From Chthoniobacterales bacterium (lineage in GTDB: Bacteria > Verrucomicrobiota > Verrucomicrobiia > Chthoniobacterales > UBA10450): a DNA stretch of 15,855 bases. Each line of letters opens with the position of its first letter. The stretch's first letter is position 1. The DNA lies in contig QHBM01000070.1 in NCBI GenBank assembly GCA_003244145.1, positions 204 to 16,058 on the forward strand. Reading direction: 5' to 3'. The position numbers and the translations under genes are program-made. The notes under the pieces are model-generated. The model was not told the DNA's origin. It did no database searches and saw only the letters and a program-made list of their open reading frames with translations. This document shows positions 6,769 to 13,199 of the stretch, one piece after another.

Positions 6769-6775
6769 TTTAGGG

Positions 6776-6856
6776 AGCCACGGATGAACACGGATGAAAC
6801 ACGGATAACAGATCCGAAAAGAAGAAATCCGTGTTTGTCCGTGTTAATCCGTGGCT
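6776..6856. repeat. 81-bp imperfect palindromic (REP/MITE-like) element in the nuoI-nuoJ spacer
   Basis: The left arm carries CACGGAT at 6779, 6789 and 6800. The right arm carries ATCCGTG at 6827, GTCCGTG at 6837 and ATCCGTG at 6847, plus GATCCG at 6811 in the loop. The arms AGCCACGGATGAACACGGATGAAACACGGAT and ATCCGTGTTTGTCCGTGTTAATCCGTGGCT pair over about 28 bp with 2 to 3 mismatches or bulges. The element fills nearly all of the only sizeable non-coding gap in the operon (6769-6858). Confidence 0.8.
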
Positions 6857-6858
6857 AC

Positions 6859-7390: not shown

Positions 7391-8452
7391 TCAAGCAGGG
7401 AAGTAAGCGAGAATGATCGCGGCGATGAAAATGTTTACGAGCGCGATCTCGAAAAAGAAGACCCAGCCGAGCCGCATCAGTTGATCGTACCGAAAACGCG
7501 GCAGCGTCCAGCGCACCCAGATGAAAACAAAAAGGAGCACGGCCACCTTCGAGAAAAAGACAAAAATGTTCACCAGCCCCCAGCTCCAGCCCTGCGAACC
7601 GTCCGGAATGCCGGGAAAATGCCAGCCGCCGAGAAAGAGGGTCACGATGATCGCGCTGCCAGTGATCATGGCGACGTATTCGCCGAGAAAAAAGAGCCCG
7701 AACTTCATCGAGCCGTACTCGGTGTGATAACCGCCCACCAGTTCCGTCTCCGCTTCCGGCAAGTCGAAGGGCAATCGGTTCGTTTCCGCGAAAATCGCAA
7801 TCGTGAAAACGACGAACGAGATCAGCATCGGAATCGCGAGAAGCCATTTGCGAAGATTCGTCCAATCGCCCACGAACGGTGCGATCATCCAGCCGTGCTC
7901 GATTTGATAACTCACGACCTCGGTTAACCGGAGCTGGCCGATGAGAAGGAAAACCGGAATGACGGCGAGACCGAGCGAAAGTTCGTAGGAGATCATCTGC
8001 GAACTGGAACGGACTCCGCCGAGGAATGGATACTTGGAGTTGGACGACCAGCCGGCAATGACGATGCCGTAAACGCCTAACGAGGCGATCGCGAAGACGA
8101 AAAGAACTCCGACATTGATGTCCGCGATCACCATCGGCACACCGAAGAGCGAGCTGCCGAAAGGGACGACGGCGAGCGTCGTGATCGCGGGGATCATCGC
8201 GAGGCAGGGCGCAAGCCAGTAGTAAAACTTGTTTACGTGTCCCGGAGTAAAATCCTCTTTCAGGAGAAACTTCGCGGCATCGGCGATAGGCTGGAATAAT
8301 CCGAAGGGACCGACGCGATTCGGTCCGAGCCGGTCCTGGATCAGCGCGCTGATCCGGCGTTCGGCATAGACAGTGTAGTTCATGATGCCGAGCACGACCG
8401 CGAGCAGCGCCACGATTTTCACTAGCGAGGTCGTGAGGTAGAAATAATCCAT
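7391..8452 (-). CDS. nuoH: NADH-quinone oxidoreductase subunit H
   Basis: The protein contains LIQDRLGPNRVGPFGLFQPIADAAKF and a polytopic body. The start is set at Met59 of the track ORF (MDYFYLTTSLVKIVALLAVV..., ATG 8450-8452), sharing one base with the nuoG TGA (TGATG). The upstream 58 codons overlap nuoG and are hydrophilic and Arg-rich. Confidence 0.9.
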   Translation of the reverse strand: MDYFYLTTSLVKIVALLAVVLGIMNYTVYAERRISALIQDRLGPNRVGPFGLFQPIADAAKFLLKEDFTPGHVNKFYYWLAPCLAMIPAITTLAVVPFGSSLFGVPMVIADINVGVLFVFAIASLGVYGIVIAGWSSNSKYPFLGGVRSSSQMISYELSLGLAVIPVFLLIGQLRLTEVVSYQIEHGWMIAPFVGDWTNLRKWLLAIPMLISFVVFTIAIFAETNRLPFDLPEAETELVGGYHTEYGSMKFGLFFLGEYVAMITGSAIIVTLFLGGWHFPGIPDGSQGWSWGLVNIFVFFSKVAVLLFVFIWVRWTLPRFRYDQLMRLGWVFFFEIALVNIFIAAIILAYFPA

Positions 8453-10116
8453 CAGGCGGGGCTCCCTGCGTTTTCCAGAATCTGCACACCGAGATCGCCG
8501 ATCTTGCTCAGGCTCAATCCCGCGAATTGCGGCACTGACTCGCTCATTTGCCGAAAGACATCCTCGATCGAATAAATTCCATTGCGGCCCGAGCAGGCCT
8601 GAATCAAGTCGCGCAGAATTTCCCAATCATCGCGTGCCTGGCCCGGACCGCGCACAGCCCGATTGAGCCTTTGCAACCGGCCTTTGCCATTAATCATCGA
8701 CCCGCGTTTTTCGGCGAAACCGAACGAGGGCAGAAGAGCGGTCGCCGCGGGCGTCGAGTCGTTGGCCAGGATATTCATCGCGATGAACGCGGGCAACGCG
8801 GTGATCTGCGCGACGGTCAATCCGATCTCGATCGGATTCTCCCCGAGCGCGACCAGCGCCTTGATTCGGCCGGACGCAACGCCCTGCACTATTTCCGGAA
8901 GTCGAGCGCCGGGCTGCGACGTCACGCCGAGGAGCCGCGCGCCGTTCGTATTGGGATTGCGGTCCGCGCTCAAAAGAATGTTGTCCGCCGGCCCGTGGCG
9001 CGGAACGATGTCGATCGATTCGACGCCGAGCGTTTTTGCGAGTTGCGACGTCAGCCAAAGCTCTTCATTGGTCATCCGGCCGGAAGCGAGGATCGCAATT
9101 TCCCAACCGGAGAAATGTTTCAACTGCACGGCCGCATGCGTGATCGCGACGCTCCATTCGGCCGGGATGAGTTTGTCGCCGGAAAGAATTTCCGGCTGAA
9201 GCAGCCGCTTCTCCGATTGGAGATACCCGAAGTTCAGACGGCCGTAGTCGCACATCCAGCAGGAATTAACGGCGTCGTTTTCGCGCGGTGTTTGCCGGTA
9301 GATCACATCTTCGCGCGTCCCGATGATGGTGTTGCAGCCGGTCGCGCAACTCGTGCAAAAACTTTTCGTTTCCTTTAAAAACCAGACGCGCATCTGGAAC
9401 CGGAAATCGGAAGAGGTCAGCGCGCCGACCGGGCAGATATCGACGGTGTTGAGCGAATAATTATTTTCCAATCGTTTGCCGGGATGGGCCGTCAGGACAC
9501 TGTGGCTGCCGCGATCGACGAACCCGAGGACGTCGTCCTGCGCCACTTCCTGGCAAAAACGAATGCAGCGCGAACAGAGAATGCAGCGCTCGTCATCGAG
9601 CGTGACGCGCGGCCCGAGCTCGATGTTCTTCGGCTTCTTCACCTTGTTTTCGAGGAAGCGCGATTCGGCGCTGCCGTATTCCACGCTGAATTCCTGCAAC
9701 CGGCATTCGCCCGCTTGATCGCAGATCGGACAATCGAGCGGATGATTGATGAGGAGAAATTCCATCACGCCTTTGCGGCATTCCACTGCCAGCGGCGAAT
9801 CGGTCCGGACGCCCATGCCTTCACTGACGTCCTGCGCGCAGGAAATTTGCGGGCGCGGCATCCAGTTGATCAGCGGTTTGCCATCCGGGCCGAGCTCGGG
9901 TTTGCGGTCGGGCCCCATTTTCGGGAGTCCCATTTCGATCAGGCACATGCGGCAGTTGCCCGGCGAGCTGAGCTTCTTGTGGTAGCAATACCGCGGCACG
10001 TAGCTGCCCGCCTTTTCGCAAGCCTCGATCACGCGCGTCCCTTTCGGGAACTCGTGCCAGACGCCGTTGATCTGGACGTTGACCATTTGCGGTGGAGCTG
10101 AGACTTGGTCACTCAT
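8452..10116 (-). CDS. nuoG: NADH-quinone oxidoreductase subunit G, short form (554 aa)
   Basis: The N-terminal 2Fe-2S region is ...CEKAG...RYCYH...GNCRMCLIE. Further cluster motifs are HPLDCPICDQAGECRLQ, ERCILCSRCIRFCQEV...DICPVGAL, and an extra Cys motif CTSCATGCN...SCWMCDYG (N7-like). These are followed by only part of the molybdopterin-oxidoreductase-like domain. Confidence 0.9.
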   Translation of the reverse strand: MSDQVSAPPQMVNVQINGVWHEFPKGTRVIEACEKAGSYVPRYCYHKKLSSPGNCRMCLIEMGLPKMGPDRKPELGPDGKPLINWMPRPQISCAQDVSEGMGVRTDSPLAVECRKGVMEFLLINHPLDCPICDQAGECRLQEFSVEYGSAESRFLENKVKKPKNIELGPRVTLDDERCILCSRCIRFCQEVAQDDVLGFVDRGSHSVLTAHPGKRLENNYSLNTVDICPVGALTSSDFRFQMRVWFLKETKSFCTSCATGCNTIIGTREDVIYRQTPRENDAVNSCWMCDYGRLNFGYLQSEKRLLQPEILSGDKLIPAEWSVAITHAAVQLKHFSGWEIAILASGRMTNEELWLTSQLAKTLGVESIDIVPRHGPADNILLSADRNPNTNGARLLGVTSQPGARLPEIVQGVASGRIKALVALGENPIEIGLTVAQITALPAFIAMNILANDSTPAATALLPSFGFAEKRGSMINGKGRLQRLNRAVRGPGQARDDWEILRDLIQACSGRNGIYSIEDVFRQMSESVPQFAGLSLSKIGDLGVQILENAGSPA

Positions 10117-10131
10117 GAAGAAGGATGAATT

Positions 10132-10153
10132 AGGAAAGCAGGAAAAAAGGAAA
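10132..10153. repeat. Left terminal inverted repeat of the GxxExxY cassette: (AGGAAA NN) x3, period 8
   Basis: The sequence is AGGAAAgcAGGAAAaaAGGAAA, with units at 10132, 10140 and 10148. It abuts the stop codon of the cassette ORF (10154-10156) and ends 15 nt from the nuoG ATG. Positions 10132-10145 are the perfect reverse complement of 10554-10567. Confidence 0.8.
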
Positions 10154-10582
10154 CTAAGATCGAAAATCGGCCACTGGGTTTGCTGATTCCCGGCAGAACC
10201 TCTTGATCGTCAGCGGAGCAGTTGCGAAATTTAGCAAGAGGCCGTCTTGAAGATTGGTGGCTTTTAGATAGCTGCGACCAATGGCGAAGTGAATGTCCTC
10301 GAGAGCGCTGATGGCTTTTAGCTCCACGACAATTTGATCTTCCACCAGGAAATCGAGTCGATGCTCGCCGATTTGGTGATCCTTGTAGAAAAGCGCGATT
10401 GGCTTCTGTCGGACGAATTGAATTCCGCTCAAAGCGAATTCCACAGCGAGTGCCTGCTCGTAGACCGACTCCAGAAATCCGGGTCCCAGTTCACGATGCA
10501 CCGCAATGGCGGCGGCGATGATTCGTTGAGTTACGTCTCGTCCCCTTAGATCCTTTCCTGCTTTCCTATTTTCCTGATTCAT
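10154..10582 (-). CDS. GxxExxY family protein (PD-(D/E)xK nuclease superfamily, PDDEXK_3-like), 142 aa
   Basis: The protein contains IIAAAIAVHRELGPGFLESVYEQALAVEF, which holds the eponymous G-F-L-E-S-V-Y. It then has HRLDFLVEDQIVVELK (a D...E-x-K nuclease motif) and the typical LLLNF...TIKR ending. The ATG at 10580-10582 lies 2 nt after the nuoEF stop. Confidence 0.85.
   Translation of the reverse strand: MNQENRKAGKDLRGRDVTQRIIAAAIAVHRELGPGFLESVYEQALAVEFALSGIQFVRQKPIALFYKDHQIGEHRLDFLVEDQIVVELKAISALEDIHFAIGRSYLKATNLQDGLLLNFATAPLTIKRFCRESANPVADFRS
10554..10575. repeat. Right terminal inverted repeat of the GxxExxY cassette: (TTTCCT NN) x3, period 8
   Basis: The sequence is TTTCCTgcTTTCCTatTTTCCT, with units at 10554, 10562 and 10570. 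It lies inside codons 3-10 (QENRKAGK) of the cassette ORF. An outer ATTCAT (10577-10582) mirrors ATGAAT at 10125-10130. Confidence 0.8.
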
Positions 10583-10584
10583 TT

Positions 10585-12570
10585 TCAGATTGTTCCCGCG
10601 GTGGCCGTTTCTTCCCGGCCTGGATTACGGGCCAGCGGCATCGTCTCGATCTTTGCGTGATCGATCAATTCGCCGGATGTGTATTCGGGCGGCATCGGCG
10701 GCGGAATTGGTTTCTGACTGCGTGCGGTAAACTCTTCGCGAAATTTTTCGACAAAACTTTGGGTCGGCCACGCGCACGCTTCGCCAAAGGCGCAGATGGT
10801 CCGGCCCGCGATATTGTCGGCGACAGTTTTCAAGGTGTCGGGGTCCTGGACCACGCCGCCGCCGAGCAACATCCGGTCGGTGATCTTTTGCATCCAGAGT
10901 GAACCTTCGCGGCAGGGGGTGCATTGGCCGCAGCTCTCGTGCGCGTAAAATTCGTTGATGTTGTTCAGCGTCCAAACCATGTCGCGCGAATCGTCGAGCA
11001 CGATGACGCCGCCGGAGCCGGCCATCGACCCCGCCGCAGCGAGCGAATCGAAGTCCATCGGAATTTCGAAGAGCGACACTTCCTGTTCCGCCATCGAACC
11101 GTCGGATTGCTTGAGTTTGAGTTTGAAGCGCTCGTCCCCGCGCAAGACTTTTGCGGAGCTGCCGCCGGGGATAACGGCTTTGATCGTGCGACCGTGGCGC
11201 GGACCGCCGGCCATATCGTAAATCAATTGGCCCATGGTGACGGCGCCAACTTCGATTTCAAAATATCCGGGTCGCTGCACGTCGCCGCTCACACAAACGA
11301 TGCGGGTGCCGGTGTTATTCGGGCGTCCGAGCTGCGCGTATTTTCCGCCGCCCATCTCGATGATGTGTTTCACGTGGCAAAGCGTTTCCACGTTGTTGAC
11401 GATGGTGGGGCACATGTAGAGGCCGAGCACCGCGGGGAAATACGGCGGCTTGATCCGTGGGTACGCGCGCTTGCCTTCGAGCGATTCGATCAGGCCGGTT
11501 TCTTCACCGCAGATATACGCGCCGGCGCCGCGGTGGATGTAAACCTCGACGTCGAATCCGGTGCCGAGCATGTCCCGCCCGAGAAAATTCTTGGCGCGCG
11601 CTTCCTCGATCGCGCGCTCGAGGATCTGCGCGCCTTCGGGAAATTCACCGCGGATGTAGATGTAGGCCGTCTTCGCGTTAAGCGCGAAACAGGAGATCAG
11701 AATGCCTTCGAGGAGTTGATGCGGATCTTCGTGAAGGATGTAGCGATCCTTGAACGTGCCCGGCTCGGATTCGTCGGCGTTGCAAATCAGGTAGACTGGC
11801 TTTTTTTCGTCGGCTTTGATGAAGCTCCATTTCACGCCGCAGGGGAAACCGGCGCCGCCGCGTCCGCGGAGCCCCGACGTTTTCACTTCGTTGACGATTT
11901 CCGTCCGCGACATCTTGACGGCTTTTTTTAACTGCTCGTAACCGCCGCCGCGCAGGTAGCAGTCAATGTCCGTCGTCCAATCTTTGCGTCCGATGTTTTG
12001 GAAAATGAGACGATGCTCGAGCGGGTGGGGGAGTCGGTTCTTGGTTATTGGAGATTGGTTATTGGTAAGAAGAGCGGAGGCAGCGGCCGGTTGCACGTTC
12101 TCGATCAATTCATCCTGGACCATGCAGACGGGCGCGGTGCCGCAACTGGCTAGGCACTCGACAAATTCGATGCTGTATTTGCCGTCCTTGCTCAGCGAAA
12201 TCGGAGTGTGCACGCCCTTGTCGTCATGCTTGCGCACAATCCCGGCGGCGGCGGACGCTTTCTCCATGACCTGATAACTTCCGGCCATGGCGCAGCTCAA
12301 AGTGCGGCAGACACGAATATGCGTTTTCCCGGCCGAGGCCTGCCGGAACATCGGGTAGAACGTGACCAGCTCGAGAATGTTGATCGGCTGCAGCTCGAGT
12401 TTGGCGGCGATCCACTGCACGCCCGCGTCGCTGATAAATCCAAACTCCTCCTGCCAAAGATGGAGCAGGGGCATCGACGCGCTTCGCTTCCGATCGGCCG
12501 GATAATGGCTGATCGCTTCGTCCATTTTCCGCTCCAGCTCGGCGGAGATGCGCGTGTTCGTCGGGTCCAC
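10585..12570 (-). CDS. nuoEF: Fused NADH-quinone oxidoreductase subunits E and F (NuoE-NuoF, 661 aa)
   Basis: Residues ~1-165 form the NuoE module (ISHYP..., [23 protein letters not shown], i.e. the 2Fe-2S Cys set). The linker is [17 protein letters not shown]. Residues ~185-615 form the NuoF module ([43 protein letters not shown]). A ~45-aa Pro-rich tail follows. It is one uninterrupted frame. The start is either the GTG at 12568-12570 or the ATG at 12523-12525, which has a GGAG 6 nt upstream. Confidence 0.88.
12041..12065. repeat. 11-bp perfect direct repeat (TTGGTTATTGG x2, 3-nt spacer) in the NuoE-NuoF linker
   Basis: The copies are at 12041-12051 and 12055-12065, with AGA between them. 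On the coding strand this reads CCAATAACCAA tct CCAATAACCAA. The 14-nt period means the two copies are read in different frames (TNNQ / SPITK). Confidence 0.85.
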
Positions 12571-12581
12571 AGACGACGCGC

Positions 12582-12887
12582 TTAATCGGACAACGTGCTG
12601 ACTTTCGACTGCACCTTGTCGTCTTTGAAAATGATGGTGACCGACTCTTTCCCCTGGGCGTAAACGTAAGTCGTCTTTTTCAGGAGAACGAAATCCTTCG
12701 TATCGACGGTCGTGGGCGAACCCAAAATCGATTCGACCTGCTTCTTCGACATGCCATCGATCACTTCATCGACGTTGGCCTTGGTCAGCCGCTTGGACGA
12801 GTGGCACGCCGTCACCGCGCAGGCCAGCACCGTCACGATAGTGACGAGGCTGAGAAACCGGGCGGCGTGTTTTAGCAGGTGAGTCAT
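12582..12887 (-). CDS. Small lipoprotein, BamE(SmpA/OmlA)/DUF3862-like, 101 aa (paralog B)
   Basis: The signal peptide carries a lipobox (LACAVTA|C). The mature domain is RLTKANVDEVIDGMSKKQVESILGSPTTVDTKD...KKTTYVYAQGKESVTIIFKDDKV, following the x-Y/V-x-x-I-x-x-GMS-x-x-QV-x-x-ILG-x-P pattern of small BLIP-like or BamE-like lipoproteins. By hand alignment it is about 50% identical over the mature part to the adjacent ORF. Confidence 0.75.
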   Translation of the reverse strand: MTHLLKHAARFLSLVTIVTVLACAVTACHSSKRLTKANVDEVIDGMSKKQVESILGSPTTVDTKDFVLLKKTTYVYAQGKESVTIIFKDDKVQSKVSTLSD

Positions 12888-12893
12888 CCGAGT

Positions 12894-13199
12894 TTATCTT
12901 CCGAGGTTCGAATCCTTCCCATCCACTTCGTCGTTCTTGAACGTGATCATCGCGAATTTCTTTCCGTCCTCATAACGGTAGGTCGTCTTCTTGAAGATGA
13001 GCATGTCCTTTGTCTCGACCGTGCTGGCTGGTCCCAGGATTTTTTCCACCTGCGCCTTGCTCATGCCGACGCTGATCTGGTTGTAATTATCCAGAGTGAG
13101 GCGCGAACCGGAGATCGCGTTGCGATCGCAAGCGGCAAAGGTGATAAGAACGAGCAAAGCAAGAATGCCGATAACTGACCGCGAGTTTTTTTGTTTCAT
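12894..13199 (-). CDS. Small lipoprotein, BamE(SmpA/OmlA)/DUF3862-like, 101 aa (paralog A)
   Basis: The start is set at the internal Met (MKQKNSRSVIGILALLVLITFAA|C, lipobox; ATG 13197-13199), 11 nt after the nuoD stop. The longer track ORF (to 13523) overlaps nuoD and is Arg/Ala-rich noise. The mature part is RLTLDNYNQISVGMSKAQVEKILGPASTVETKD...KKTTYRYEDGKKFAMITFKNDEV. Confidence 0.75.
   Translation of the reverse strand: MKQKNSRSVIGILALLVLITFAACDRNAISGSRLTLDNYNQISVGMSKAQVEKILGPASTVETKDMLIFKKTTYRYEDGKKFAMITFKNDEVDGKDSNLGR

What the first reader, a model, noticed from the sequence alone, without database searches (positions are those of the whole stretch)
10117..10587. TIR-bounded GxxExxY (PD-(D/E)xK nuclease-like) cassette wedged between nuoEF and nuoG
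A 142-aa GxxExxY-family ORF (GFLESVY motif plus a D-x(n)-E-L-K nuclease-like motif) sits co-oriented in the middle of the complex I operon, 2 nt after the nuoEF stop and 37 nt before the nuoG ATG. It has no respiratory function that I know of.

Its ends are marked by a structured inverted repeat. The left end, 10132-10153, is AGGAAAgcAGGAAAaaAGGAAA. The right end, 10554-10575, is TTTCCTgcTTTCCTatTTTCCT. Each end therefore carries three hexamer units at exact 8-bp period. The two ends have a 14-bp perfect complementary register (10132-10145 with 10554-10567) or an 18/22 full-length register. Outer ATGAAT (10125-10130) and ATTCAT (10577-10582) sequences extend the symmetry.

A perfect 14-bp inverted repeat within 500 bp is expected only about 0.03 times per window on a uniform-base estimate. 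The low-complexity purine content makes it somewhat less surprising. The left repeat abuts the ORF stop codon, and the right repeat encodes residues QENRKAGK, which look like translated repeat rather than conserved protein. Hand-counted G+C inside the cassette is about 48-50%, against about 62% in nuoG.

From memory, GxxExxY/PDDEXK_3 genes are multi-copy in some genomes and are among the ORFs found inside 23S rRNA intervening sequences, which are stem-bounded and excised by RNase III. This locus looks like the mRNA-operon analogue. The termini could pair in the polycistronic transcript, closing a ~400-nt loop containing only this ORF. That would create an RNase III-type processing site at the nuoF|nuoG boundary or occlude the SD-less nuoG start. 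Alternatively the repeats are DNA-level termini of a small selfish, homing-type element whose nuclease is the ORF. Neither the mobility mechanism nor the function of this family is established as far as I know.
Basis: partly seen in the sequence, partly recalled or inferred. Interest (0 to 1): 0.72.

Follow-up and report, generated by a model that had tools for sequence, protein, structure and literature searches.

The report
Hairpin-bounded nuclease-gene cassette in complex I operon
A small nuclease-like gene, enclosed by inverted repeats that can pair into a long stem, has been inserted exactly between two respiratory complex I genes. Related soil bacteria show that this junction is a fast-changing landing site for a seemingly undescribed class of elements built like the intervening sequences of ribosomal RNA.

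Summary
A 142-aa GxxExxY/PDDEXK_3 ORF (PF13366 E=1e-37; TIGR04256 E=2e-39) lies 2 nt after the nuoEF stop and 37 nt before the nuoG ATG. It is bounded by 29-nt inverted arms, each made of three 8-nt units.

- **Variable site.** Across 77 Chthoniobacterales junctions, 40 carry a GxxExxY cassette and 8 are empty (stop, about 1 nt, ATG). Nineteen carry ORF-less 80-110-nt hairpins. [quoted passage not shown] States are intermixed between sister species.
- **Arms.** They covary: 28 pairs, 91.8% paired, 11 pairs with compensatory changes. Arms of the same type form ORF-less hairpins at dozens of unrelated intergenic sites.
- **Other phyla.** GxxExxY genes in Bacteroidota and Alphaproteobacteria show the same architecture.
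- **Geometry.** The 5' arm starts at the upstream stop and the 3' arm ends near the downstream ATG. RNA folding pairs the arms (median P 0.89). ORF-less versions carry relay mini-ORFs.

My reading is an intervening-sequence-like, insertion-derived cassette that persists because it preserves translational coupling. RNase III cleavage, nuclease activity and the mobility mechanism are untested.

The parts
10554..10582 (-). 5' arm on the transcript strand. Sequence AUGAAUCAGGAAAAUAGGAAAGCAGGAAA, three 8-nt units. It contains the cassette ORF start codon (10580-10582) and encodes residues 1-10 (MNQENRKAGK).
   Evidence: Conserved and covarying with the 3' arm in 39 species.
10154..10582 (-). GxxExxY / PDDEXK_3 ORF of 142 aa. 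The start is 2 nt after the nuoEF stop.
   Evidence: PF13366 E=1.1e-37 and TIGR04256 E=1.7e-39. E38, D77, E87 and K89 are invariant across phyla. Core dN/dS is about 0.07-0.08. The AF2 model's best PDB matches are PD-(D/E)xK nucleases, all weak.
10125..10153 (-). 3' arm on the transcript strand. Sequence UUUCCUUUUUUCCUGCUUUCCUAAUUCAU. It starts immediately after the ORF stop codon and is non-coding.
10117..10124 (-). 8-nt pyrimidine spacer (CCUUCUUC) between the 3' arm and the nuoG AUG. Bases 10115-10119 (UUCAU, including the AU of the nuoG AUG) are predicted to pair with the cassette AUGAA at 10578-10582.
   Evidence: Base-pair probabilities of 0.84-0.96 in constructs of 511, 601 and 1001 nt.
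10585..12570 (-). Fused nuoE-nuoF gene, the upstream neighbour. Its stop codon abuts the 5' arm.
   Evidence: Pfam and NCBIfam.
8452..10116 (-). nuoG, the downstream neighbour.
   Evidence: Pfam and NCBIfam.
6770..6858 (-). Second element of the same general class in this window. It is an ORF-less hairpin at the nuoI|nuoJ junction. Its arms are three units of about 10 nt (ACACGGAnnn). It carries a 30-codon relay mini-ORF that starts at the ATGA overlap with the nuoI stop and ends 1 nt before the nuoJ ATG.
   Evidence: RNA MFE -45.4 kcal/mol, z = -7.2. Mini-ORF read by hand from the sequence.

Best explanation
The segment is an insertion-derived, stem-bounded gene cassette. A GxxExxY (minimal PD-(D/E)xK nuclease fold) gene is enclosed by about 29-bp inverted arms, each built from three tandem 8-mers. 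The cassette sits exactly between the nuoEF stop and the nuoG start.

It is one occupant of a fast-turning-over intercistronic site. It belongs to a wider population of hairpin elements, with or without an ORF, that colonise gene junctions in Chthoniobacterales. [quoted passage not shown] In architecture they are the mRNA counterpart of ORF-bearing 23S rRNA intervening sequences.

Shown here:
- the architecture, its conservation and covariation;
- presence/absence and replacement among close relatives;
- decayed derivatives;
- dispersed ORF-less copies of the arms;
- recurrence of the architecture in other phyla;
- purifying selection on the protein.

Inferred:
- In the polycistronic nuo mRNA the arms pair and loop out the ORF, which places the nuoEF stop next to the nuoG start.
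- A ribosome terminating at nuoEF melts the base of the stem and exposes both the cassette AUG and the nuoG AUG. Translational coupling across the insert is thereby kept, and this is why the insertion is tolerated in an essential operon.
- The same long stem is also a plausible RNase III substrate.

Unknown: how the cassette moves, and what the protein cuts.
For: 1. **Family.** HMM hits are far above the curated cut-offs. The catalytic-type residues are invariant.

2. **Site census.** In 77 nuoEF|nuoG junctions there are 40 GxxExxY cassettes (3 truncated) and 8 empty sites. There are also 19 hexamer-unit hairpins, 2 repeat-only derivatives, 3 PF05635 cassettes (plus 2 more on cut contigs), 2 short remnants and 3 other ORFs. 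These states are intermixed between sister taxa on a NuoEF tree.

3. **Host versus cassette divergence.** Hosts 7% apart in NuoEF carry GxxExxY proteins 33-45% apart. The correlation between the two distances is only rho = 0.45 and 0.20 for the two subfamilies.

4. **Arm covariation.** The 28 pairs are 91.8% paired against 84.5% in shuffles (0 of 500 reach it). Eleven pairs show double changes, covering 79 cells against 31.5 expected. Slid controls give 31-55%.

5. **Conserved geometry.** The ATG lies 0-4 nt after the upstream stop or overlaps it, in all but a few cassettes. The 3' arm starts at the ORF stop in most cassettes and ends within about 15-20 nt of the nuoG ATG.

6. **Arms elsewhere.** 24 were nuo junctions and 96 were other contexts. 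38 of those 96 are clear 64-146-nt ORF-less hairpins. A repeat-only copy lies at nuoH|nuoI in L035.

7. **PF05635 cassettes.** Cassettes with hexamer-unit arms occur at nuoEF|nuoG and nuoH|nuoI.

8. **All junctions.** Four of the five nuo junctions with adequate sampling show empty and hairpin-sized gap classes. The 400-500-nt cassette class occurs only at nuoEF|nuoG and nuoH|nuoI.

9. **Relay mini-ORFs.** 77 of 119 hairpin-sized inserts have one, against 26.5 expected. At nuoEF|nuoG the count is 19 of 21 against 7.7.

10. **RNA pairing.** In the window the central 12 pairs have P of at least 0.93 and the flanking segments 0.6-0.97. Arm pairing is predicted in 36 of 39 cassettes, median P 0.89.

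11. **Other phyla.** Sphingomonas fabD|gx|fabG, Bacteroides radA|gx and Bernardetia have 25-30-nt arms of 8-nt units, 387-412 nt apart. None of 200 shuffles matches them.

12. **Coxiella comparison.** The Coxiella intervening sequence is 428 nt with a 28-bp terminal stem. It has tandem heptamer repeats in its 5' region and an S23p ORF, and RNase III excises it (PMC4990558).

13. **Transcription.** No promoter-like or terminator-like site lies in the cassette on the transcribed strand, which fits co-transcription.
Against: - Among arm mismatches G:U (41) equals A:C (44). There is therefore no signature that complementarity is selected on the sense RNA rather than at DNA level or by common descent.
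- In the window the full-length register has P of about 0. Only the 8-nt-shifted register is predicted.
- Sequestration of the nuoG start is predicted in only 17 of 39 cassettes, and nuoG starts were inferred from alignment.
- In 1.2 Mb of fetched DNA, GxxExxY-bearing copies were found only at nuoEF|nuoG. The ORF-bearing unit has therefore not been seen to move to new sites within this clade.
- The dispersed hairpins share arms but not loops, unlike a classical transposon-derived repeat family.
- No target-site duplication is evident.
- Five of nine GxxExxY genes in plasmid or chromid records have no detectable arms.
- Related species are not independent samples, so the shuffle-based statistics overstate significance.
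- All sequences come from metagenome-assembled genomes. No expression data were available.
Confidence: 0.62

Rival explanations
1. The GxxExxY protein serves the hairpins, as RAYT transposases serve REPIN repeats. It would be a single-copy nuclease kept at one conserved site and flanked by its cognate repeat arms. It would act in trans on hairpin or cruciform forms of those arms to spread or maintain the dispersed ORF-less hairpins.
For: - The gene is flanked by the same arm type that forms many ORF-less hairpins elsewhere.
- In this clade it is found at one site only.
- The protein is under strong purifying selection and keeps an intact active-site motif.
- Protein subfamilies and arm variants co-diverge: the CAGGAAAG, CAGGAACG and CCAGGAAG/CUGGAAGC arm types each go with a different protein subfamily.
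Against: - Co-divergence of protein and arms is expected from common descent alone.
- Other hairpin families with different units are associated with a four-helix-bundle protein (PF05635), which is not an enzyme as far as is known.
- I could not test whether hairpin abundance tracks presence of the gene, because whole genomes could not be scanned.
- About half of the related species lack the gene at this site.
Confidence: 0.2
2. Site-specific homing. The GxxExxY nuclease cuts empty nuoEF|nuoG junctions, and the cassette is copied in by recombinational repair using the conserved nuo flanks.
For: - The same site is occupied or empty among close relatives.
- Cassette lineages are incongruent with host distances.
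- The gene was seen only at this site.
- PD-(D/E)xK homing enzymes are known (I-Ssp6803I; established knowledge, not tested here).
Against: - Homing needs no inverted arms, yet the arms are conserved and covary.
- The same site also receives ORF-less hairpins and PF05635 cassettes.
- In other phyla the gene sits at unrelated junctions.
- Cleavage of the empty site is untested.
Confidence: 0.15
3. A host regulatory device. The stem would be an intercistronic processing or stability element, for example an RNase III site, that sets the ratio of upstream to downstream nuo products. The ORF would be incidental cargo.
For: - A long, near-perfect stem is predicted robustly.
- Most nuo junctions in this clade can carry hairpins.
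- Intercistronic stem-loops are known to tune segmental mRNA stability (established knowledge, not tested here).
Against: - Occupancy is highly variable between sister species, and 8 of 77 junctions are empty. No conserved requirement is therefore visible.
- The ORF is under purifying selection, so it is not inert cargo.
- No expression data were available.
Confidence: 0.1
4. An ordinary, vertically inherited accessory gene of the operon whose flanking complementarity is low-complexity coincidence.
For: The arms are purine-rich or pyrimidine-rich low-complexity sequence, and the 5' arm is coding.
Against: - The pattern is expected 0.01 times per window.
- The arms show compensatory changes in 39 species.
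- Empty sites and decayed copies exist.
- The same architecture occurs in three other phyla.
Confidence: 0.02

Closest known systems
ORF-bearing intervening sequences of 23S rRNA (Coxiella, Leptospira; S23p / PF05635 protein)
   Same: - The size is about 430-470 nt.
- The terminal stem is about 28 bp and formed by inverted ends.
- Short tandem repeats lie in the 5' arm region (GACAGAT x3 in Coxiella).
- A small ORF lies in the loop.
- Distribution is patchy (PMC4990558).
- In relatives of this organism, PF05635 cassettes of this architecture occupy the same junction and the neighbouring one.
   Different: - The cassette lies in a protein-coding operon between two cistrons, not in 23S rRNA helix 25 or 45.
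- The ORF is GxxExxY/PDDEXK_3, not S23p.
- The ORF start lies inside the 5' arm and is translationally coupled to the upstream gene.
- RNase III excision is untested here.
REPIN repeats and their RAYT transposases
   Same: A single-copy gene at a conserved site is flanked by its cognate inverted repeats. The same repeats form many short ORF-less hairpins in intergenic DNA.
   Different: - The protein has a PD-(D/E)xK fold and is not an HUH/Y1 transposase.
- The arms are tandem arrays of 6-10-nt units.
- Loops of the dispersed hairpins are unrelated to one another.
- Any action of the protein on the hairpins is hypothetical.
Correia elements of Neisseria and other co-transcribed miniature inverted-repeat elements (ERIC, RUP, Rickettsia palindromic elements)
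   Same: These are short inverted-repeat elements inserted in or between genes and co-transcribed. They fold into hairpins that RNase III can process or that change mRNA stability. This comparison rests on established knowledge and was not tested here.
   Different: - Those elements are non-coding copies of one consensus, usually with target duplications.
- Here an ORF lies in the loop and the arms are periodic.
- No target duplication is seen.
- The inserts keep a reading-frame relay between neighbouring genes.
Translational coupling through long-range mRNA pairing (MS2 coat-replicase, rpmI-rplT)
   Same: A downstream start region pairs with an upstream translated segment, so translation upstream unmasks the downstream start. 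This matches the predicted pairing of the 5' arm (first 10 codons of the cassette ORF) with the region just upstream of nuoG.
   Different: In the known cases the pairing is a fixed regulatory feature of the operon. Here it arrives with a variable insertion, and its function is inferred only from geometry and folding.

Membership tests
GxxExxY / PDDEXK_3 (TIGR04256, PF13366) | Profile match above the curated cut-off over the full domain | tested here: met
   PF13366 scores 129.4 bits (cut-off 22) over profile positions 2-116 of 117. TIGR04256 scores 134.8 bits (cut-off 35).
GxxExxY / PDDEXK_3 (TIGR04256, PF13366) | GxxExxY motif and PD-(D/E)xK-type acidic and lysine residues | tested here: met
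   G35-F-L-E38-S-V-Y41, D77 and E87-L-K89 are invariant in a nine-sequence cross-phylum alignment. They are at least 90% conserved in 37 junction copies.
GxxExxY / PDDEXK_3 (TIGR04256, PF13366) | PD-(D/E)xK fold | tested here: inconclusive
   The AF2 model has pLDDT 75.6. The top Foldseek PDB matches are all PD-(D/E)xK nucleases (LHK-Exo, Cas4 SSO0001, lambda exonuclease), but they are weak: E of at least 8e-3 and TM 0.42-0.49. There is no sequence relative in the PDB.
GxxExxY / PDDEXK_3 (TIGR04256, PF13366) | Nuclease activity | not testable with these tools
   Needs purified protein.
23S rRNA intervening sequence | Inserted in a 23S rRNA helix (25 or 45) | tested here: not met
   The cassette lies between nuoEF and nuoG. 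No rRNA match was found in the window or in 40 hairpin loci.
23S rRNA intervening sequence | Terminal inverted repeats forming a stem of about 20-30 bp that closes the element | tested here: met
   The arms are 29 nt. Pairing probability is at least 0.93 for the central 12 pairs in the window. Median P is 0.89 across 39 cassettes.
23S rRNA intervening sequence | Loop ORF of the S23p / PF05635 family | tested here: not met
   The ORF here is PF13366. PF05635 ORFs occur in equivalent cassettes of relatives: L051 E=5.5e-22 and L003 E=3.2e-20.
23S rRNA intervening sequence | Excision by RNase III | not testable with these tools
   Needs transcript end mapping or in vitro cleavage.
Transposon or miniature inverted-repeat element | Terminal inverted repeats | tested here: met
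Transposon or miniature inverted-repeat element | Target-site duplication | tested here: inconclusive
   Comparing empty and filled junctions shows no consistent direct repeat. The spacer after the 3' arm is variable.
Transposon or miniature inverted-repeat element | Multiple copies at unrelated sites | tested here: inconclusive
   Arms and ORF-less hairpins occur in many contexts. The ORF-bearing cassette was found only at nuoEF|nuoG in this clade. Loops of the hairpins are unrelated to one another.
Transposon or miniature inverted-repeat element | Encodes a recognised transposase | tested here: not met
   The only ORF is PF13366, with no transposase family hit.
REPIN-RAYT system | HUH/Y1 (RAYT) transposase | tested here: not met
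   The protein is a PDDEXK_3 member.
REPIN-RAYT system | Gene flanked by cognate repeats that also form dispersed hairpins | tested here: met
Homing endonuclease gene | Presence or absence at one homologous site among relatives | tested here: met
Homing endonuclease gene | Encoded enzyme cleaves the empty site | not testable with these tools
   Needs biochemistry.

The most novel reading that the evidence does not exclude
GxxExxY cassettes, 23S_rRNA_IVP cassettes and their ORF-less hairpin derivatives would form one cross-phylum class of mobile elements that can be called intercistronic intervening sequences. Their periodic inverted arms would be the substrate of the encoded protein. For GxxExxY this would be a structure-specific PD-(D/E)xK nuclease acting on hairpin or cruciform arms. 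Their stem and relay-ORF design would let them sit invisibly between translationally coupled genes. The classical 23S rRNA intervening sequences would then be the special case in which such an element landed in an rRNA operon. This would finally assign a role to two large, paralogue-rich protein families of unknown function.
Probability: 0.3. Interest if true: 0.9.

Novelty: new variant of a known kind. Interest (0 to 1): 0.78.

Why it matters
[quoted passage not shown] The origin and mobility of rRNA intervening sequences have been open since the early 1990s. The data here link both families to one architecture: a cassette of about 450 bp closed by a stem of about 28 bp built from tandem 6-10-mers. 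This architecture occurs at intercistronic junctions of essential operons and turns over between sister species, leaving decayed hairpins behind.
- **Testability.** The question becomes directly testable through genome-wide association of protein and hairpin, cleavage assays on defined substrates, and coupling reporters.
- **Gene expression.** Insertions into tightly coupled operons appear to be tolerated through relay mini-ORFs and start codons placed at the base of a stem. This matters for operon evolution and for annotating "hypothetical" mini-genes and gaps in metagenome-assembled genomes.

Tried and rejected
- **Rfam.** The window (E-value mode) and 40 hairpin loci gave no relevant family. 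There was one sub-threshold miRNA-precursor hit to the nuoI|nuoJ hairpin, one RNase P RNA about 70 nt from a hairpin, and one tRNA.
- **PDB by sequence.** No relative was found.
- **Phage records.** There was no GxxExxY match.
- **Strand-specific RNA signature.** G:U 41 against A:C 44 shows no bias.
- **Full-length pairing register in the window.** P is about 0. The shifted register is the predicted one.
- **Target-site duplication.** None was consistent.
- **Promoter and terminator scan.** No promoter-like site was found, and no terminator-like site inside the cassette.
- **Reaching distant GxxExxY genes.**
  - A profile search of the protein database again returned almost only the Chthoniobacterales subfamily.
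  - Two divergent hits were Prevotella-like contexts and added little.
- **Association within the loci.** I looked for a link between GxxExxY presence and cognate hairpins inside the 10-kb loci. There were too few events.
- **Literature.** Searches for GxxExxY, PDDEXK_3, TIGR04256, intervening-sequence protein and IVS-like elements found no description of these cassettes. A library miss is not proof that they are undescribed.
- **Rejected explanations.** A chance low-complexity repeat and a fixed vertical operon gene are both ruled out (see rival explanations).


Full report
**Source and observation**

The window comes from a Chthoniobacterales (Verrucomicrobiota) metagenome-assembled genome, contig DAIRXU010000034.1 of GCA_036819535.1. 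The complex I operon runs on the minus strand.

The ORF at 10154-10582 encodes 142 aa. It starts 2 nt after the stop of a fused nuoE-nuoF gene (10585-12570) and ends 37 nt before the nuoG ATG at 10116. It matches PF13366 (PDDEXK_3) at E=1.1e-37 and TIGR04256 (GxxExxY) at E=1.7e-39, both far above the curated cut-offs.

The repeats are as described. The arms are 10125-10153 and 10554-10582, 29 nt long and 83% complementary. An 18-nt, 94% register lies shifted by one 8-nt unit. The (AGGAAANN)2AGGAAA pattern occurs only at these two ends, against 0.01 expected. G+C drops to 0.48-0.51 inside the cassette, against about 0.55-0.65 in the flanks. No promoter-like site was found, and no terminator-like site lies inside the cassette.

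**The junction in relatives**

I fetched the nuoEF locus from 80 related species and located nuoEF, the GxxExxY ORF and nuoG in each. The 77 scorable junctions include the window's own contig:

| State of the junction | Count |
|---|---|
| GxxExxY ORF at exactly this position (3 truncated) | 40 |
| Empty (stop, about 1 nt, ATG, or overlapping) | 8 |
| ORF-less hairpin of 78-107 nt with (CTCGTG)n / (CACGAG)n-type arms | 19 |
| Internally deleted GxxExxY cassette that keeps both arms | 2 |
| Short remnant | 2 |
| Cassette with a different ORF flanked by hexamer-unit arms | 3 |
| Unrelated 127-aa ORF | 3 |

[quoted passage not shown] L051 scores E=5.5e-22.
- A simple profile found further PF05635 cassettes at nuoEF|nuoG on two cut contigs. 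It also found ten loci with one at nuoH|nuoI, for example L003 at E=3.2e-20.
- On a NuoEF neighbour-joining tree the junction states are thoroughly intermixed. Sister species differ in state.
- Hosts only 7% apart in NuoEF carry GxxExxY proteins 33-45% apart. GxxExxY distance correlates weakly with host distance, rho 0.45 and 0.20 for the two subfamilies.

**The arms are a conserved, covarying feature**

Every GxxExxY cassette begins with ATGAATC[A/T]GGAA... at the upstream stop. Each carries the reverse complement just after its own stop codon.

Different protein subfamilies have different but internally complementary arms. One pairs CAGGAAAG with CTTTCCTG, another CAGGAACG with CGTTCCTG, and a third CTGGAAGCCAGGAA with TTCCTGGCTTCCAG.

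I counted 28 proposed pairs on 39 sequences:
- 91.8% of cells are paired, against 84.5% in shuffles (0 of 500 reach it).
- 11 pairs show changes on both sides, covering 79 cells against 31.5 expected.
- Controls with the partner slid by 1-3 columns give 31-55% paired.

The sequences are related, so these figures overstate independence. The subfamily-level compensatory switches are nevertheless unambiguous.

Transition-type mismatches are symmetric, G:U 41 against A:C 44. Nothing therefore shows that complementarity is maintained specifically on the sense RNA.

**Geometry and the RNA-level model**

- The cassette ATG lies 0-4 nt after the nuoEF stop, or overlaps it, in all but a few cassettes. 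The 3' arm begins at the cassette stop in most cassettes and ends within about 15-20 nt of the nuoG start.
- In the window the partition function pairs 10555-10567 with 10132-10144. P is at least 0.93 for 12 of these 13 pairs. This is the shifted register; the full-length register has P of about 0.
- The cassette AUGAA (10578-10582) pairs with UUCAU (10115-10119), which includes the first two bases of the nuoG AUG, at P 0.84-0.96.
- These pairings are stable in constructs of 511, 601 and 1001 nt.
- Across 39 cassettes the arms pair with median P 0.89, and 36 of 39 exceed 0.6. The cassette AUG is sequestered in 26. The nuoG start, inferred by alignment, is sequestered in 17.

The ORF-less inserts give independent evidence that translation across these elements matters.
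- At nuoEF|nuoG, 19 of 21 hairpin-sized inserts contain a mini-ORF. It starts at or just after the upstream stop and ends overlapping or adjacent to the downstream ATG, often as TAATG.
- Shuffling the interior gives 7.7 expected.
- Across five nuo junctions the count is 77 of 119 against 26.5 expected.

From this I infer how the cassette is tolerated.
- Termination at nuoEF opens the base of the stem.
- That exposes both the cassette start and the nuoG start, which preserves coupling.
- The stem is also long enough to be an RNase III substrate.

None of these three points has been tested.

**The arms are not private to this gene**

- 24 are nuo junctions. All 22 GxxExxY hits among the metagenome loci fall in this group.
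- 96 are other contexts.
- 38 of those 96 are clear ORF-less hairpins of 64-146 nt with these arms. They lie between convergent, divergent or co-directional genes, often within a few nt of an ORF end.
- Some are nested or composite with the other arm type.
- The loops are unrelated to one another.
- Solo arms recur in the 5' leader of an rdgB-like gene and in frame in an aminoacyl-tRNA-synthetase-like gene.

In relatives, repeat-only copies of GxxExxY-type arms sit at nuoH|nuoI in L035 and L033. Other unit families, (GACGAAT)n and (AACGCCS)n, form hairpins nearby.

The window itself has an ACACGGA-unit hairpin at nuoI|nuoJ, 6770-6858, with MFE -45.4 kcal/mol and z = -7.2.

Four of the five nuo junctions with adequate sampling show empty and hairpin-sized gap classes. 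The 400-500-nt cassette class occurs only at nuoEF|nuoG and nuoH|nuoI. In all 1.2 Mb of fetched DNA, GxxExxY ORFs occur only at nuoEF|nuoG.

**The protein**

- The core is strongly conserved. dN/dS is about 0.07-0.08 where dS is not saturated.
- G35, L37, E38, Y41, D77, E87, K89 and H98 are invariant in an alignment spanning four phyla.
- An AlphaFold model has pLDDT 75.6. The N-terminal 10 residues, which the arm encodes, are disordered.
- The best PDB matches are only PD-(D/E)xK nucleases: LHK-Exo, Cas4 SSO0001, lambda exonuclease, RecE and tRNA splicing endonuclease. All are weak, with E of at least 8e-3 and TM 0.42-0.49.
- The PDB holds no sequence relative.

**Beyond this clade**

GxxExxY genes in annotated plasmid or chromid records from other phyla are also wedged co-directionally between housekeeping genes:
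- fabD | GxxExxY | fabG in Sphingomonas;
- radA | GxxExxY | FAD-dependent protein in Bacteroides;
- ade | GxxExxY | guanylyltransferase in Bernardetia.

Three of the nine genes have flanking inverted repeats of 25-30 nt, 86-92% complementary and 387-412 nt apart. These arms are again built of 8-nt tandem units, CGCGAAGG-like and CACAGAGG-like, and none of 200 shuffles matches them. One more gene has a weaker pair (3 of 200 shuffles) and five have none.

In Bacteroides the 5' arm starts 1 nt after the upstream stop and the 3' arm ends 5 nt before the downstream ATG. This is the same geometry as in the window.

**Comparison with what is known**

The closest described object is the ORF-bearing intervening sequence of 23S rRNA. 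The Coxiella element is 428 nt and is closed by a 28-bp stem of inverted ends. It has three tandem heptamers in its 5' region and an S23p (PF05635) ORF, and RNase III excises it. Its origin and mobility are unresolved (PMC4990558).

The present cassette shares that architecture but differs in three ways. It lies in an mRNA between two cistrons. It carries a different protein family. It is wired into translational coupling.

Full-text searches found no paper describing GxxExxY cassettes or intercistronic elements of this kind. The PD-(D/E)xK survey lists PDDEXK_3 as of unknown function (PMC3424549). Absence from the searchable library does not prove the elements are undescribed.

**Verdict**

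The insertion and intervening-sequence-analogue reading is well supported by comparative data. The mechanisms remain inferences: pairing-dependent coupling, RNase III cleavage, and nuclease-driven mobility or maintenance. I rate this a new variant of a known kind with high interest. It ties two orphan protein families and rRNA intervening sequences to one testable element class.

Noticed in passing
window 6770-6858 (minus strand is the sense strand): An ORF-less hairpin lies at the nuoI|nuoJ junction. Its arms are three units of about 10 nt (ACACGGAnnn). MFE is -45.4 kcal/mol with z = -7.2. A 30-codon mini-ORF runs from the ATGA overlap with the nuoI stop to a TAA 1 nt before the nuoJ ATG.
   Followed up: partly
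window 12582-12887 and 12894-13199 (minus strand): Two tandem 101-aa BamE/BLIP-like lipoprotein genes sit inside the complex I operon, between nuoD and the fused nuoEF. Relatives have one or two copies (nuoD-to-BamE gaps of about 0-30 nt or about 320 nt).
   Followed up: no
window 10585-12570 and 8452-10116: nuoE and nuoF are fused into one 661-aa ORF. NuoG is short (554 aa), and its best-scoring stretch covers only the first 342 of 606 positions of the TIGR01973 model.
   Followed up: no
L043, L045, L046: nuoEF|nuoG junction (about 380 nt): In three related species the junction holds an unrelated 127-aa ORF (MGYVFAQL...) with only a faint Asp_protease_2 match (E=0.0096). It reads in frame into the start of nuoG. 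No periodic arms were seen.
   Followed up: partly
L091, L105, L120, L136, L148, L173, L183, L196 (metagenome contigs): The (CAGGAAAG)3 array occurs without a partner arm and in frame inside an aminoacyl-tRNA-synthetase-like gene (...NLxDFESGKQEKQEK...DRWIL...). This looks like a repeat array inserted into a coding sequence.
   Followed up: no
L095, L106, L123, L125, L139, L145, L147, L154, L170, L181, L187, L190: The same array recurs as a solo arm 6-8 nt upstream of the ATG of an rdgB-like gene (MDLLLATRN...), between divergent genes. It may serve as a purine-rich leader or be a half-element remnant.
   Followed up: no
L128, L135, L156, L189, L199 and L122, L185; L033 9261-9425: These are composite hairpins in which arms of one unit type enclose, or interleave with, arms of the other type. 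In L094, L159 and L198 the enclosing units are ACACAGATGA. The ACAGAT core resembles the GACAGAT heptamers of the Coxiella intervening sequence.
   Followed up: partly
L058, L063, L064, L068, L074: 5' arm of the cassette: In five subfamily-B cassettes the arm-borne ATG is mutated to AGG, ACA or ACG. An in-frame ATG 9 codons downstream, preceded by the AGGAA units, could serve as the start. The arm may therefore double as a ribosome-binding region.
   Followed up: no
L112 (metagenome contig), original coordinates about 2760-2844 and 2267-2690: A hairpin with these arms lies about 70 nt from a bacterial RNase P RNA gene (RF00010, 166 bits). That match spans 424 nt against a 367-nt model.
   Followed up: no
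L207 1605-1677 (Gemmatirosa chromid): A 32-nt-arm hairpin made of CGCGGATn units lies directly downstream of a GxxExxY gene that has no flanking arm pair of its own.
   Followed up: no
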